Shown in pieces: positions 17,466 to 36,155 of a stretch of DNA of 64,000 bases. The DNA comes from Escherichia coli (GTDB lineage Bacteria > Pseudomonadota > Gammaproteobacteria > Enterobacterales > Enterobacteriaceae), in NCBI RefSeq assembly GCF_013122565.1, contig NZ_CP053258.1; one strand, given 5' to 3'. The notes below the pieces were generated by a model. That model did not search any database and was not told the origin of the DNA. It saw only the letters and a program-made list of their open reading frames with translations. How positions within the stretch are numbered: the first letter of the stretch is position 1; each line of letters begins with the position of its first letter. The position numbers were made by a program, and so were the translations under genes.

Positions 17466-17541
17466 TGGCTCCTCTGACTGGACTCGAACCAGTGACATAC
17501 GGATTAACAGTCCGCCGTTCTACCGACTGAACTACAGAGGA
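17466..17541 (-). tRNA. asnV: tRNA-Asn (GUU)
   Basis: 76-nt reverse complement of the E. coli tRNA-Asn sequence; position between ldtA side and nac. Confidence 0.95.
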
Positions 17542-17795
17542 ATCGTGTGAACGGGGCGCATATTAATGGCAGTGCATGGTGATGTCAAAGGGTGAAATGC
17601 ATTTTTTTGTTTGTTTGCTGTCAATTTCAACAAAGTGATGAGATTTCAATCTTATTGGTTATGAACCATCGTGGTGCATACTCTCCTTTTATGGGGCAGG
17701 GGAACGCGATTGCTGATAAAAAGAACCAATGACGAATCTATCATAATCTCTTATTTGACAGTTGGTTAGCTTGTACATCAACGCCAAAATAAAAC

Positions 17796-17811
17796 TGGCA
17801 AGCATCTTGCA
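17796..17811 (+). promoter_or_regulatory. Sigma-54 (-24/-12) promoter of nac
   Basis: tggca-N6-ttgca about 55 nt upstream of the nac ATG; nac is known to be sigma-54/NtrC dependent. Confidence 0.6.
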
Positions 17812-17866
17812 ATCTGGTTGTAAGTAATGGCGGCACTTGGGCCGATTCTTAAAAACCGGAGGCAAC

Positions 17867-33700: not shown

Positions 33701-35766
33701 TCTGTAGTGACACCAGGTTTCACGTTGTCGATGCTGACTGCGGTATTCAGTTGCTGTTTTTGCTCCTTAACAGGTTTGTTATTTTCATCTCTCAGTTCTA
33801 CCGTCACCTCGATAGGATTGCCGGAGAGATAACGGTCCTTATCAATCTTAATTGACGAGTGAGTCCGGGATGACGAAACAGAAATGATATTCACCACGGC
33901 GGGGGCTTTAGCCGCATCCACACCGTTCAGCTGTGGCATCAGCGTCAGCGTGCCAGACATCGCTCCTGTGGTCAGGATCTGGGTATAGCTTCCGTCACCA
34001 TTATCTTTCCAGTCAGAAAGGGTGATGTCCTGAACACCTTCGTGACGCGTCGAGAGCACCAGCCCGATAACAGGATTACCTGCTGCATCATGCGCAATAA
34101 AAGTCAGTGTGGCGGTTGAATGGGAATCCGCGCTCAATGTCTGGGTACTTAACGATACCGAGGAATCTTTCTGGCTTAGCGTAGGTGCCTGAACGACTAC
34201 CATGCTCTGTTCACGATTCGAAAAATTGCCTTTGACATCTTCAGCGGTGACTTCAATCGGCCAGGTGTTATCGGTTTCTGGCGTACTGGTGAACCGGTAC
34301 GCCGGCAGGGTAACCAGAATATCTTTACCCGTTGTAACCACTTTACCACCGGCAGCTTCCAGAGCGGTGGCTTCGACGTTATAGCCTTTCAGGGCATATT
34401 TGGTTTGTAGCGACGAAACCAGTGATTTCACTTCTCCTGACTTCCCTGTCACGGGGTCTGTCAGGGTCAGGCGGAGCAGTTCTTTTTTGCGATATTCCAG
34501 AACGATGTTGTTGTTGCGATCCACCAGATCATAACGGCTGCCTGCAAGGCTACGCCGTGCAGCGACTTCATTCGGGTCAAGCTGTTTCTGCATTGCGCTG
34601 CCAGGTTGCCAGGTAAAATCGACGGCAAAACGGGTGTCATTTTCGCCCTGTTTACCCTGGCGTTGCTCCGCGCTGAAGGTCATCAGCGGGAAGGGGGTAT
34701 AGTTAAGTCCAGCGGTTATGGCATGAGGATTACTTTGCCGATCATCTTTATCGAACAGGGCCACTTCATCGCCATAATACTGTTCATAGACCAGTTTACC
34801 GCCAAGGTGCGGCCAGGCGGGTAACCAGCCTTCTGCGCGTACATCCCAGCCATTGGCCGGGCGTGCTTCATAATCGTTGTCCAGTTCAGGTGCGCTGCGC
34901 CAGTTTGTCAGTCGCAAATAGCCGTTACTGCTTAATTTTAGATAGTCGCGCCAGTACTCCGCGCCAATGCCGGCGCGGGAGTGGTAACGGCTAAGATCGT
35001 GGTCGAAAAAGAAGTTGATGCCCGACATCCATGTGTGAGTGAAATGACGCCAACCCAAGCCGTTATTAATCTGCGTACGTTCGTCAGTACGGTGGAGAGT
35101 ATGCTGACTGAAAAAGAGATTATCAGGCGTTTCATACCACGGATGGAGAAAATCGAACCGGGAGTTCTTCAGGCTAAAATCTTCATCCACGCCCAGCGTG
35201 ATTCTTGCGGTACCGAAGCGGCTTAACCAGTCTGTCATTGCGCCTGAAGCCTGAGAAGAGGCCCATCCACGCGCCATATTTTCCGCTTGCTCGCTGTTCA
35301 TATCTTCGGCGAGCAGAGACCCGATTTGCTGTGAAGTACTGGCTATCTGTTGCTCGAGGTTGTCACTGCTATTACCCGGCGGCGGGGTTAATTTTTTTTC
35401 ACTAATTTGTGCCGGGACATCCAGTTCATCACCCTGGCGGACATTATCAAAACCTCGAGCAAACGTACGAAATTGGTTGAGTTTGCGTAACTCAGCCACC
35501 GAAATACCGAAACGTTCGGCAACGCTTTGGGCCGATTCCAGCGCTCCAAGGGTGTAGGGCACCGTATTGGCATTTGCAATGGCGATTTGTGCAGGAACTG
35601 GTTGTTGGGTTGCGGCGTTTACCACACCTTGTGCTGCCGCAGCCATAGGGAACGCAAGTTGAGTTACCAGGCAGATACCCGCAGTTAAGCGGCGTAGTTT
35701 AATTCCCATCCCGCATAAGATTTGTCGGTCATTTATTTCTTCTCCACTTCTCTTCTTCGTAGCCAT
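27784..35766 (-). CDS. yeeJ: Inverse autotransporter adhesin (intimin/invasin family) with LysM region, beta-barrel and many Ig-like (Big) repeats
   Basis: Start trimmed to MATKKRSGEEINDRQ (ATG at 35766, RBS agggaagg); 2660 aa; the C-terminal two-thirds is built of about 100-aa Thr/Val-rich Big-type repeats. Confidence 0.9.
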   Translation of the reverse strand: MATKKRSGEEINDRQILCGMGIKLRRLTAGICLVTQLAFPMAAAAQGVVNAATQQPVPAQIAIANANTVPYTLGALESAQSVAERFGISVAELRKLNQFRTFARGFDNVRQGDELDVPAQISEKKLTPPPGNSSDNLEQQIASTSQQIGSLLAEDMNSEQAENMARGWASSQASGAMTDWLSRFGTARITLGVDEDFSLKNSRFDFLHPWYETPDNLFFSQHTLHRTDERTQINNGLGWRHFTHTWMSGINFFFDHDLSRYHSRAGIGAEYWRDYLKLSSNGYLRLTNWRSAPELDNDYEARPANGWDVRAEGWLPAWPHLGGKLVYEQYYGDEVALFDKDDRQSNPHAITAGLNYTPFPLMTFSAEQRQGKQGENDTRFAVDFTWQPGSAMQKQLDPNEVAARRSLAGSRYDLVDRNNNIVLEYRKKELLRLTLTDPVTGKSGEVKSLVSSLQTKYALKGYNVEATALEAAGGKVVTTGKDILVTLPAYRFTSTPETDNTWPIEVTAEDVKGNFSNREQSMVVVQAPTLSQKDSSVSLSTQTLSADSHSTATLTFIAHDAAGNPVIGLVLSTRHEGVQDITLSDWKDNGDGSYTQILTTGAMSGTLTLMPQLNGVDAAKAPAVVNIISVSSSRTHSSIKIDKDRYLSGNPIEVTVELRDENNKPVKEQKQQLNTAVSIDNVKPGVTTDWKETADGVYKATYTAYTKGSGLTAKLLMQNWNEDLHTAGFIIDANPQSAKIATLSASNNGVLANENAANTVSVNVADEGSNPINDHTVTFAVLSGSATSFNNQNTAKTDVNGLATFDLKSSKQEDNTVEVTLENGVKQTLIVSFVGDSSTAQVDLQKSKNEVVADGNDSATMTATVRDAKGNLLNDVKVTFNVNSAAAKLSQTEVNSHDGIATATLTSLKNGDYRVTASVSSGSQANQQVNFIGDQSTAALTLSVPSGDITVTNTAPQQLTATLQDKNGNPLIDKEITFSVPNDVASQFSISNGGKGMTDSNGVAIASLTGTLAGTHMITARLANSNVSDAQPMTFVADKDRAVVVLQTSKAEIIGNGVDETTLTATVKDPFDNAVKDLPVTFSTNPADTQLSQSTSNTNDSGVAEVTLKGTVLGVHTAEAILLNGNKDTKIVNIAPDASNAQVTLNIPAQQVVTNNSDSVQLTATVKDPSNHPVAGITVNFTMPQDVAANFTLENNGIAITQANGEAHVTLKGKKAGTHTVTATLGNNNASDAQPVTFVADKDSAVVVLQTSKAEIIGNGVDETTLTATVKDPFDNAVKDLPVTFSTNPADTQLSQSTSNTNDSGVAEVTLKGTVLGVHTAEAILLNGNRDTKIVNIAPDASNAQVTLNIPAQQVVTNNSDSVQLTATVKDPSNHPVAGITVTFTMPQDIAANFTLENNGIAITQANGEAHVTLKGKKAGTHTVTATLSNNNTSDSQPVTFVADKTSAQVVLQISKNEITGNGVDNATLTATVKDQFDNEVNNLPVTFSSASSGLTLTPGVSNTNESGIAQATLAGVAFGEQTVTASLANNGASDNKTVHFIGDTTAAKIIELTPVPGSIIAGTPQNSTGSVITATVVDNNGFPVKGVTVSFTSRTKSAEMTNGGQAVTNEQGKATVTYTNTRSSRETGARPDTIEASLENGSSTLSTSIQVDADASTAHLTSLYTLYDTQLAGEDTTLYITVNDIYGNGVPLHQVTLSVSPSEGVTLSNNGINTTNHDGYLYASMTATKAGVYQVTATLDNGDSMQHTVTYVPNVANAEITLAASKDPVIADNNDLTTLTATVADTEGNAIANTEVTFTLPEDVRANFTLGDGGKAVTDTEGKAKVMLKGTKAGAHTVTASMAGGKSEQLVVNFIADTLTAQVNLNVTEDNFIANNVGMTRLQATVTDGNGNPLANEVVTFTLPADVSASFTLGQGGSAITDINGKAEVTLSGTKSGTYPVTVSVNNYGVSDTKQVTLIADAGTAKLASLTSVYSFVVSTTEGATMTASVTDANGNPVKGIKVNFRGTSVTLSSTSVETDDQGFAEILVTSTEVGLKTVSASLADKPTEVISRLLNASADVNSATITSLDIPEGQVMVAQDVAVKAHVNDQFGNPVTHQPVTFSAEPSSQMIISQNTVSTNTQGIAEVTMTPERNGSYMVKASLANGASLEKQLEAIDEKLTLSASSPLIGVNSPTGATLTATLTSANGTPVEGQVINFSVTPEGATLSGGKVRTNSSGQAPVVLTSNKVGTYTVTASFHNGVTIQTQTTVKVTGNSSTAHVASFIADPSTIAATNSDLSTLKATVEDGSGNLIEGLTVYFALKSGSATLTSLTAVTDQNGIATTSVKGAMTGSVTVSAVTTAGGMQTVDITLVAGPADASQSVLKNNRSSLKGDFTDSAELHLVLHDISGNPIKISEGLEFVQSGTNVPYVQVSAIDYSKNFSGEYKATVTGGGEGIATLIPVLNGVHQAGLSTTIQFTRAEDKIMSGTVLVNGANLPTTTFPSQGFTGAYYQLNNDNFAPGKTAADYEFSSSGSWVDVDATGKVTFKNVGSKWERITATPKTGGPSYIYEIRVKSWWVNAGDAFMIYSLAENFCSSNGYTLPLGDHLNHSRSRGIGSLYSEWGDMGHYTTEAGFQSNMYWSSSPANSNEQYVVSLATGDQSVFEKLGFAYATCYKNL
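31480..32700. repeat. Near-perfect tandem duplication (2 x 609 bp) inside yeeJ
   Basis: The unit starting gtaaccgtatgcgt(a/g)cccgcttttt recurs at about 31495 and 32104 with only a handful of mismatches over 609 bp; in frame, duplicating about 203 aa (two Big domains). Confidence 0.85.
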
Positions 35767-36079
35767 GCTTACCTTCCCTGAACGAGCTAACATAAATGCG
35801 CCCTTTCTAGCACAGCGAAAAAATGTAAATCCTGATAGCAATATGATTGAAAATTAATAACTTTTCGTTAGGCAGTTTTGGGTGTGAGTTGCAAGAGGGG
35901 AGACTACTGAATTACTCAAGTTTTATAATCGAGGGGAAAATGGTGATGGCGTCCATAGCAAAACGCCCTCAACCATTAAGGTCGAAGGCGCTTAAGATGT
36001 CAAAAACCCGCTATCCGTTAAAAAGCAATGCTCAACTAAGGTCAGTGACATTGCGCTAAAAAAGCGAATTTTTAGAATT

Positions 36080-36155
36080 TGGCTCCTCTGACTGGACTCG
36101 AACCAGTGACATACGGATTAACAGTCCGCCGTTCTACCGACTGAACTACAGAGGA
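36080..36155 (-). tRNA. asnT: tRNA-Asn (GUU)
   Basis: Identical 76-nt tRNA-Asn (reverse complement); upstream flank atcgtgtgaacggggcgcatatta is identical to that of asnV. Confidence 0.95.

What the first reader, a model, noticed from the sequence alone, without database searches (positions are those of the whole stretch)
17466..36155. Four identical tRNA-Asn genes in mixed orientation, with yeeO bracketed by an inverted pair
asnV, asnU and asnT (minus strand) and asnW (plus strand) are identical 76-nt sequences. asnU and asnW form perfect inverted repeats flanking yeeO, while asnV/asnU/asnT are direct repeats with near-identical flanks (the 24-bp upstream flank of asnV and asnT is identical). 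These are substrates for homologous inversion or deletion, and the accessory island sits exactly at one of them.
Basis: seen in the sequence. Interest (0 to 1): 0.3.

Follow-up and report, generated by a model that had tools for sequence, protein, structure and literature searches.

The report
Four identical tRNA-Asn genes as recombination sites
This is the well-known E. coli cluster of four identical asparagine tRNA genes; complete genomes show that recombination between the copies does flip or delete the genes lying between them, and most of this has already been described.

Summary
The window holds four 100% identical 76-nt tRNA-Asn(GTT) genes: asnV 17466-17541(-), asnU 19874-19949(-), asnW 21698-21773(+) and asnT 36080-36155(-). 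They lie in the standard E. coli order ldtA-asnV-nac-cbl-asnU-yeeO-asnW-yeeN-amn-shiA-yeeL-yeeJ-asnT-mtfA.

I searched 5,426 complete E. coli genomes with synthetic recombinant junctions.
- yeeO flip (asnU x asnW): 32-34 genomes, in at least 4 separate lineages. Two flipped genomes are 0-1 nt from a native-orientation genome over 7.3 kb.
- 4.3-kb asnV x asnW inversion: 266 genomes, including Nissle 1917.
- 14-kb asnW x asnT inversion: 1 genome.
- nac-cbl deletion (asnV x asnU): inspected in one genome, with two more showing the same search pattern.
- Larger deletions (asnU x asnT, asnV x asnT): none.

In every rearranged locus I inspected except one non-tRNA nac-cbl deletion (SL112), the promoter flank of one copy meets the terminator flank of another exactly at the tRNA.

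The asnV x asnW inversion is already published (Auvray 2021; Wami 2021; Russell 2019, within cultures). The "island" beside asnV is a 9.5-kb PTS sugar cluster with no integrase or att repeat, and it starts 51 nt beyond the tRNA. Overall the finding is real and ordinary, and mostly known.

The parts
17466..17541 (-). asnV, tRNA-Asn(GTT), 76 nt
   Evidence: ARAGORN; Rfam RF00005; identical to the other three copies
19874..19949 (-). asnU, tRNA-Asn(GTT), 76 nt
21698..21773 (+). asnW, tRNA-Asn(GTT), 76 nt; the only copy on the + strand
36080..36155 (-). asnT, tRNA-Asn(GTT), 76 nt
19869..19953 (.). Left arm of the perfect 85-nt inverted repeat asnU/asnW; the right arm is 21694-21778. This pair is the substrate of the yeeO flip.
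   Evidence: the repeat finder I3, 100% complementary; recombinant junctions in 32-34 genomes
17462..17565 (.). Left arm of the 104-nt, 97% inverted repeat asnV/asnW; the right arm is 21674-21777. This pair is the substrate of the 4.3-kb nac-cbl-asnU-yeeO inversion.
   Evidence: the repeat finder I2; junction present in 266 genomes
36073..36179 (.). Right arm of the 107-nt, 96% inverted repeat asnW/asnT; the left arm is 21674-21780. This pair is the substrate of the 14.3-kb yeeN-yeeJ inversion.
   Evidence: the repeat finder I1; one genome, ET5, carries the yeeN|tRNA|mtfA junction
17560..17588 (-). asnV promoter: TTGACA, 17 nt, TAATAT
   Evidence: sequence
19966..19993 (-). asnU promoter: TTGACA, 16 nt, TAAGAT
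21651..21679 (+). asnW promoter: TTGACA, 17 nt, TAATAT
36174..36202 (-). asnT promoter: TTGACA, 17 nt, TAATAT. Read from the sequence; this stretch was outside the scanned range.
   Evidence: upstream flank printed
17432..17459 (-). asnV intrinsic terminator hairpin
17867..19836 (+). nac and cbl (LysR-type regulators), between the direct repeats asnV and asnU; deleted in a few genomes
   Evidence: ORFs; annotation of the colinear locus L001; deletion in MEI3O-23
20110..21597 (+). yeeO (MATE efflux transporter), the only gene between asnU and asnW
   Evidence: ORF 19957-21597; annotation of L001
22224..35841 (.). yeeN(-), amn(-), shiA(-), GT9/yeeL(+), yeeJ(-), all between asnW and asnT
7941..17414 (.). 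9,474-nt PTS/sugar-phosphate cluster between ldtA and the asnV terminator. It encodes two PTS IIA/IIB/IIC sets, SorC- and DeoR-type regulators, RpiB, Rpe, an SDR and HxlB. It has no integrase.
   Evidence: boundaries against island-free L002; annotation of colinear L001; present in 225 of 5,426 genomes; no extra copy of the tRNA 3' end

Best explanation
The four genes are the ordinary asnT/U/V/W tRNA-Asn genes of E. coli. Each is its own transcription unit, with a consensus-like sigma-70 promoter, a short leader, the 76-nt tRNA and, at least for asnV, a terminator.

The copies are identical over 76 nt, or 85-107 nt with the shared promoter-proximal bases. They lie within 19 kb in mixed orientation, so they act as short homologous substrates for intrachromosomal recombination. 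An exchange between the inverted pairs (asnW with asnU, asnV or asnT) flips the segment between them. An exchange between the direct pairs deletes it.

The crossover falls inside the tRNA, so every product still has intact tRNA genes with a promoter; only the terminators and the orientation of the enclosed genes change. The products should therefore be nearly neutral, which would explain why they persist in natural lineages.

Shown here:
- the repeats;
- the exact recombinant junctions in natural genomes;
- recurrence of the yeeO flip;
- the absence of any integrase at the four sites in one flipped genome.

Inferred:
- that the enzyme pathway is general (RecA-type) homologous recombination;
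- that the products are neutral.

The same tRNA 3' ends are also attachment sites for P4-type integrase islands (HPI, pks and others). Such islands sit beside the 4.3-kb inversion in all three inverted genomes I inspected, and only one of 266 has an island-free ldtA-side junction, so an integrase may contribute to that particular event.
For: Identity and repeat geometry.

Synthetic 1,276-nt junctions searched in 5,426 complete genomes gave these counts:
- cbl|tRNA|yeeO-3' in 32 genomes, and the reciprocal yeeO-5'|tRNA|yeeN in 34;
- nac-upstream|tRNA|yeeN in 266;
- yeeN|tRNA|mtfA in 1;
- ldtA|tRNA|yeeO-5' in 35.

Annotated examples confirm each arrangement: PigCaeca_1, Nissle 1917, KL53 with a double inversion, MEI3O-23 with the nac-cbl deletion and ET5.

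The flank table shows the promoter flank of one copy fused to the terminator flank of another exactly at the tRNA in all of the rearranged loci named here.

Flipped genomes fall in at least 4 local lineages over 7.3 kb. PigCaeca_1 is 1 nt from the native-orientation ET300. CRECJHTL34 is 0 nt from a native K-12-like strain.

PigCaeca_1 has no integrase or island at any of the four asn sites.

Literature: the asnW/asnV inversion arises inside UTI89 cultures without added recombinase (PMC6458436). The inversion is described in pks-positive B2 strains (PMC8209727; PMC8461471).
Against: No experiment here shows RecA dependence.

The 4.3-kb inversion is almost never found without something inserted on the ldtA side. 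Only 1 of 266 genomes, SE15, has the empty ldtA|tRNA|yeeO-3' junction. Three inspected cases carry three different integrase islands there. That pattern fits an integrase-linked route at least as well, although much of it may reflect shared ancestry within pks-positive B2 lineages.

The two larger deletions (asnU x asnT and asnV x asnT) were never seen, even though their repeats are no worse. Recombination alone does not explain that; selection against loss of the enclosed genes is an untested assumption.

Some 'complete' assemblies could carry orientation errors. However, the repeats are only 85-107 nt, and closely related flipped genomes from different submitters agree with each other.
Confidence: 0.8

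Rival explanations
1. The inversions are made by site-specific recombination. A P4-type tyrosine integrase of an asn-tRNA island (pks, HPI or another element) would recombine the core sequence at the 3' end of one tRNA-Asn gene, or an island att site, with the inverted core in another copy. This flips the segment between them and leaves the island on the far side.
For: Only one of the 266 genomes with the asnV x asnW inversion has an empty ldtA-side junction of the K-12 type. The three cases I inspected each have a different integrase gene directly beside the tRNA at that position. The single asnW x asnT inversion also has an island at its other junction. Auvray et al. suggest the inversion 'accompanied' pks acquisition. 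An attR x attB exchange would give exactly the observed structure (my inference).
Against: The final structure is identical to 'island at asnV, then homologous inversion', which is the order proposed by Wami et al.. Anatomy therefore cannot discriminate between the two routes.

The yeeO flip has intact, island-free junctions on both sides in 32-34 genomes, and PigCaeca_1 has no integrase at any of the four sites.

The island association may be largely clonal, from the pks-positive B2 lineages. The ldtA-flank test also cannot see inverted genomes that carry the PTS cluster there.
Confidence: 0.2
2. The yeeO segment is a programmed invertible switch (phase variation) that changes expression of yeeO or of the flanking tRNA genes.
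For: The flip is recurrent and recent in several lineages. The related asnV/asnW inversion coexists in both orientations within cultures.
Against: No recombinase gene lies in or next to the segment; it is bordered only by nac, cbl, yeeO and yeeN.

Because the crossover is inside the tRNA, the promoters of yeeO, asnU and asnW all move with the segment. Each tRNA keeps a promoter, and yeeO still reads towards a co-oriented tRNA. No on/off change is predicted.

Only 0.6% of genomes are flipped. yeeO is a pseudogene in some native-orientation strains.
Confidence: 0.03
3. The flipped and deleted arrangements are assembly artefacts at repeated sequence rather than real variants.
For: Repeats are a classic cause of mis-joins, and the sequencing technology behind each assembly was not checked.
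Against: The repeats are only 85-107 nt, shorter than a typical read. Both reciprocal junctions are found in essentially the same set of genomes. Related strains share the flipped state, for example AH65 with Santai and PSJ-36 with CRECJHTL34. The asnV/asnW inversion was validated by PCR.
Confidence: 0.03

Closest known systems
[quoted passage not shown]
   Same: It is the same locus with the same four identical genes, and the window has the majority (K-12-like) orientation. My junction search recovers the published inversion in 266 genomes, including Nissle 1917.
   Different: The window itself carries no HPI, pks or integrase. The yeeO-only flip (asnU x asnW), the exact nac-cbl deletion and the single asnW x asnT inversion are not mentioned in the passages I read from those papers. 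I did not read the papers in full.
Chromosomal inversions and deletions by homologous recombination between dispersed repeated genes (rrn operons, IS elements, duplicated tRNA or tuf genes) in enterobacteria (general knowledge, not tested here)
   Same: Identical repeats in inverted or direct orientation, reciprocal junctions exactly at the repeats, and products that keep all genes intact.
   Different: The repeats here are very short (76-107 nt, against several kb for rrn) and the segments are small (1.7-14 kb). The events are therefore local and do not unbalance the replichores.
tRNA-associated genomic islands with a P4-type integrase
   Same: The accessory PTS cluster lies next to a tRNA gene that is a proven integration site in other strains.
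   Different: The cluster has no integrase and no direct repeat of the tRNA 3' end. Its boundary is 51 nt beyond the tRNA, and its other boundary lies inside ldtA.

Membership tests
tRNA-Asn(GTT) genes asnT/U/V/W of Escherichia coli | Cloverleaf tRNA with anticodon GTT | tested here: met
   ARAGORN finds four tRNA-Asn(gtt) genes; Rfam RF00005 scores 72.6 bits against a gathering score of 29
tRNA-Asn(GTT) genes asnT/U/V/W of Escherichia coli | Four identical copies in the order asnV-nac-cbl-asnU-yeeO-asnW-...-yeeJ-asnT-mtfA | tested here: met
   Exact identity. The window is colinear at 97.9% over 41 kb with an annotated E. coli chromosome. The asnV-to-asnW block is intact, in either orientation, in 5,152 of 5,426 genomes.
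Repeat-mediated homologous inversion or deletion | Identical repeats long enough for homologous exchange, in the orientation that predicts the product | tested here: met
   Inverted arms of 85 nt (100%), 104 nt (97%) and 107 nt (96%); direct copies of 76 nt or more
Repeat-mediated homologous inversion or deletion | Natural variants whose two new junctions lie exactly at the repeats and are reciprocal | tested here: met
   Junction counts of 32 and 34, 266, 1 and 35; flank-swap table
Repeat-mediated homologous inversion or deletion | Dependence on RecA or general recombination functions | not testable with these tools
   Requires genetics; see next steps
Repeat-mediated homologous inversion or deletion | No need for a site-specific recombinase | tested here: inconclusive
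   Met for the yeeO flip: PigCaeca_1 has no integrase at any asn site. Open for the asnV x asnW inversion, which is nearly always next to an island.
Programmed invertible DNA switch (fimS or hin type) | Dedicated recombinase gene in or beside the invertible segment | tested here: not met
   Only nac, cbl, yeeO and yeeN are present
Programmed invertible DNA switch (fimS or hin type) | Inversion connects or disconnects a promoter or coding segment | tested here: not met
   The promoters move with the segment and each tRNA keeps one; only terminators are exchanged. This is reasoned from anatomy; expression was not measured.
tRNA-integrated genomic island (for the PTS cluster 7941-17414) | Integrase gene adjacent to the tRNA | tested here: not met
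   No integrase in the colinear annotated locus; the ORF list shows only sugar-metabolism-sized genes
tRNA-integrated genomic island (for the PTS cluster 7941-17414) | Direct repeat of the tRNA 3' end at the distal boundary, and insertion at the tRNA 3' end | tested here: not met
   CCAGTCAGAGGAGCCA occurs only in the four tRNA genes, allowing up to 2 mismatches. The boundary is 51 nt downstream of asnV, and the other boundary is inside ldtA.

The most novel reading that the evidence does not exclude
The yeeO-only flip between asnU and asnW may be a recurrent, possibly reversible, inversion running at appreciable frequency in ordinary E. coli populations. Together with the asnV x asnW and asnW x asnT exchanges, it would then shuffle the four promoter-tRNA-terminator modules continuously. 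Alternatively, island integrases may catalyse the larger inversion and thereby lock pks-type islands in place. Either reading would make this small locus a convenient natural reporter of short-homology or integrase-driven recombination.
Probability: 0.25. Interest if true: 0.35.

Novelty: already known. Interest (0 to 1): 0.18.

Why it matters
The locus matters mainly as context. It is the chromosomal site where E. coli acquires the yersiniabactin (HPI) and colibactin (pks) islands, and the orientation of the asn block is used to reconstruct how those islands arrived and became fixed.

This check adds a population-scale count of every possible exchange among the four copies. It also shows that the small yeeO flip arises repeatedly, in one case with no island or integrase at any of the four sites. 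That supports plain homologous recombination as one working route. No new kind of element or mechanism is involved.

Tried and rejected
1. Junctions with no carriers. The asnW x asnT junction on the yeeO side had 0 carriers. The one carrier of the reciprocal junction, ET5, has an island there, which explains the miss. The deletion junctions asnU x asnT and asnV x asnT also had 0 carriers.

2. Counting native genomes. I tried the whole asnV-to-yeeN stretch as a query. The '>=80% covered' count of 5,152 also includes genomes in which the block is inverted as a unit, because the block alone is 87% of the query. It therefore measures integrity of the block, not its orientation.

3. The 35 genomes with ldtA|tRNA|yeeO-5' are not all deletions.
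- MEI3O-23 is an exact nac-cbl deletion.
- SL112 has a non-tRNA deletion that leaves a cbl fragment.
- 2016C-3878 is a complex arrangement, with the yeeO and nac-cbl modules swapped and two integrase islands between them.
- I did not classify the rest.

4. The test for island-free asnV x asnW inversions used a K-12-type ldtA flank. Inverted genomes that carry the PTS cluster there would be missed.

5. Ou et al. 2006 (PMC1326021), cited for the CFT073 orientation, is not in the held library.

6. I considered a phase-variation switch and a classical tRNA-integrated island for the PTS cluster. Both failed their defining features (see the membership test).
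Full report
**1. What is there**

ARAGORN finds four tRNA-Asn(GTT) genes at 17466-17541(-), 19874-19949(-), 21698-21773(+) and 36080-36155(-), plus a tRNA-Ser(CGA) at 37147-37236. Rfam's tRNA model hits the same four sites with identical scores. A direct string comparison shows that the three minus-strand copies are identical and the plus-strand copy is their exact reverse complement.

Repeat finding gives three inverted pairs:
- asnU/asnW: 85 nt at 100%, 1,740 nt apart.
- asnV/asnW: 104 nt at 97%.
- asnW/asnT: 107 nt at 96%.

It also gives a direct family asnV/asnU/asnT, in which asnT is 94% and asnU 77% like asnV over 125 nt.

**2. What the flanks are**

The conserved upstream bases are the promoter. 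Each copy has TTGACA, a 16-17 nt spacer, TAATAT (TAAGAT for asnU) and a G+C-rich stretch, followed by a leader of roughly 10 nt. The asnT promoter was read from the sequence. A terminator hairpin follows asnV at 17459-17432. Each tRNA gene is therefore a self-contained module of promoter, tRNA and terminator.

**3. Context**

The window is colinear over 41 kb, at 97.9% identity, with an annotated E. coli chromosome, PapM-32-1. The gene order is cobUST-ldtA-[PTS sugar cluster]-asnV-nac-cbl-asnU-yeeO-asnW-yeeN-amn-shiA-GT9-yeeJ-asnT-mtfA-serU. No complete E. coli genome matched the 21-kb region at more than about 98%, so the source is a somewhat divergent lineage.

**4. The population test**

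For every possible exchange I built the predicted recombinant junction: 600 nt of one flank, the tRNA, then 600 nt of the other flank. I then asked how many of 5,426 complete E. coli genomes hold each junction colinearly over at least 80% of its length. In a native genome the two halves lie on opposite strands or too far apart to be joined, so only true recombinants score.

| Exchange | Junction tested | Genomes |
|---|---|---|
| asnU x asnW (yeeO flip) | cbl\|tRNA\|yeeO-3' | 32 |
| asnU x asnW (reciprocal) | yeeO-5'\|tRNA\|yeeN | 34 |
| asnV x asnW (4.3-kb inversion) | nac-upstream\|tRNA\|yeeN | 266 |
| asnW x asnT (14.3-kb inversion) | yeeN\|tRNA\|mtfA | 1 |
| asnW x asnT (yeeO-side junction) | yeeO-3'\|tRNA\|yeeJ-upstream | 0 |
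| asnV x asnU | ldtA\|tRNA\|yeeO-5' | 35 |
| asnU x asnT deletion | cbl\|tRNA\|mtfA | 0 |
| asnV x asnT deletion | ldtA\|tRNA\|mtfA | 0 |

**5. Inspection of examples**

- PigCaeca_1 has ldtA-tRNA(-)-nac-cbl-tRNA(-)-yeeO(inverted)-tRNA(+)-yeeN.
- Nissle 1917 has the pks island and its integrase, then tRNA(-), yeeO, tRNA, cbl and nac all inverted, then tRNA(+) and yeeN.
- KL53 shows the product of two successive inversions.
- MEI3O-23 has an exact nac-cbl deletion that leaves three copies.
- ET5 has the yeeN-yeeJ block inverted.
- 2016C-3878 and LR-58-1 have more complex permutations with islands.

I extracted the 60 nt upstream and 45 nt downstream of every tRNA-Asn in these loci. In each of the tRNA-mediated rearrangements above, the promoter flank of one copy is joined to the terminator flank of another exactly at the tRNA.

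**6. Recurrence**

I aligned 7.3 kb (nac-cbl, yeeO re-oriented, and yeeN-amn) from 17 genomes. The six yeeO-flip genomes fall in at least four separate local lineages. PigCaeca_1 (flipped) differs by 1 nt from ET300 (native). CRECJHTL34 (flipped) differs by 0 nt from a native K-12-like strain. The flip has therefore happened several times, and recently.

**7. Mechanism**

PigCaeca_1 has no integrase or island at any of the four asn sites. Both junctions of the flip are island-free in 32-34 genomes. General homologous recombination between the 85-nt perfect repeats is the simplest explanation for the yeeO flip. That is an inference; RecA dependence was not tested.

The 4.3-kb asnV x asnW inversion looks different. 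Only one of the 266 genomes (SE15) has an empty ldtA-side junction. Three inspected carriers have three different integrase islands at that position.

This inversion could arise in three ways:
- an island inserts at asnV and homologous inversion follows, which is the order proposed by Wami et al.;
- inversion happens first and integration follows;
- an integrase exchanges an island att site with asnV.

All three routes give the same final sequence, so anatomy cannot decide between them. Much of the association may also be shared ancestry within pks-positive B2 lineages.

**8. Consequences**

The crossover lies in the tRNA, and the promoters of yeeO, asnU and asnW sit inside the flipped segment. 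Every product therefore keeps intact, promoter-equipped tRNA genes, and yeeO still reads towards a co-oriented tRNA. Only the terminators and the orientation relative to neighbouring genes change. I infer that the products are close to neutral. This argues against a regulatory switch, as does the absence of any recombinase gene in the segment.

**9. The 'accessory island'**

Comparison with an island-free genome puts the insertion at window 7941-17414 (9,474 nt). In the island-free genome, 37 nt occupy that position, including the last 33 nt of ldtA. Its right edge is 51 nt beyond the 3' end of asnV, past the terminator.

The cluster encodes two PTS IIA/IIB/IIC sets, two regulators, RpiB, Rpe, an SDR and HxlB, with no integrase. 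No extra copy of the tRNA 3' end exists in the window. The cluster occurs in 225 of 5,426 genomes. It is adjacent to asnV but lacks the hallmarks of a tRNA-integrated mobile island.

**10. What is known**

- Auvray et al. [quoted passage not shown]
- Wami et al. 2021 describe the same inversion of 'yeeO-tRNA(Asn)-cbl-gltC'.
- Russell et al. 2019 detected an asnW/asnV inversion inside UTI89 cultures, validated it by PCR, found it independent of the Fim recombinases, and called it possibly common and dynamic.

The passages I read do not mention the yeeO-only flip, the exact nac-cbl deletion or the asnW x asnT inversion. These are small extensions of a known phenomenon.

**11. Verdict**

The finding is an ordinary feature of a much-studied locus and is largely already described. 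Interest is low.

Noticed in passing
window 1-64000 (tested on 16500-37500 and 4416-45474): No complete E. coli genome among 5,426 matches this region at more than about 98%. The best is PapM-32-1 from a baboon, at 97.9% over 41 kb. The window seems to come from a lineage that is poorly represented among complete RefSeq E. coli genomes.
   Followed up: partly
window 7941-17414: A 9.5-kb PTS/sugar-phosphate cluster lies between ldtA and asnV. It replaces the last 11 codons of ldtA with 8 different ones. It is present in 225 of 5,426 genomes, including ST1193 and baboon isolates, and has no integrase or att repeat. Whether it was gained in some lineages or lost in most is open.
   Followed up: partly
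window 1579-3810: ORFs at the positions of pduF and pocR, followed by a cobalamin riboswitch (3636-3810, 107.7 bits), lie upstream of cobU. In several other E. coli loci fetched here, IS remnants occupy this position instead. The sRNA STnc230 is at 2486-2569(-).
   Followed up: no
window 31433-31732 and 32042-32341; also 29770-30424: Internal 300-nt direct repeats (92% identical, 609 nt apart) and roughly 310-nt periodic repeats lie inside the 2,685-codon yeeJ ORF (27784-35841, minus strand). These are probably the Ig-like domain repeats. yeeJ is highly variable or disrupted among the genomes compared.
   Followed up: no
L010 (2016C-3878), L011 (LR-58-1), L004 (KL53): Some genomes have multi-step permutations of the asn modules. 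In 2016C-3878 the yeeO and nac-cbl modules have swapped places, with two facing integrase islands and a T6SS/Rhs island. In LR-58-1 the HPI integrase is joined to the tRNA next to an inverted yeeO.
   Followed up: partly
L017 (O157:H7 TT12A) and L018 (O111:NM 08-4377): yeeO is annotated as a pseudogene (internal stop, frameshift) in these native-orientation pathogenic strains.
   Followed up: no
window 46960-47049(-) and 55452-55538(+): The sRNA genes rseX and DsrA are detected at Rfam gathering threshold. They are unrelated to the finding.
   Followed up: no
window 17466-36155: GC skew is positive across the window, so the + strand is probably the leading strand. That would put three of the four tRNA-Asn genes (asnV, asnU, asnT) head-on to replication and only asnW co-directional. 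The asnV x asnW inversion would change this ratio (the replication direction is inferred, not tested).
   Followed up: no
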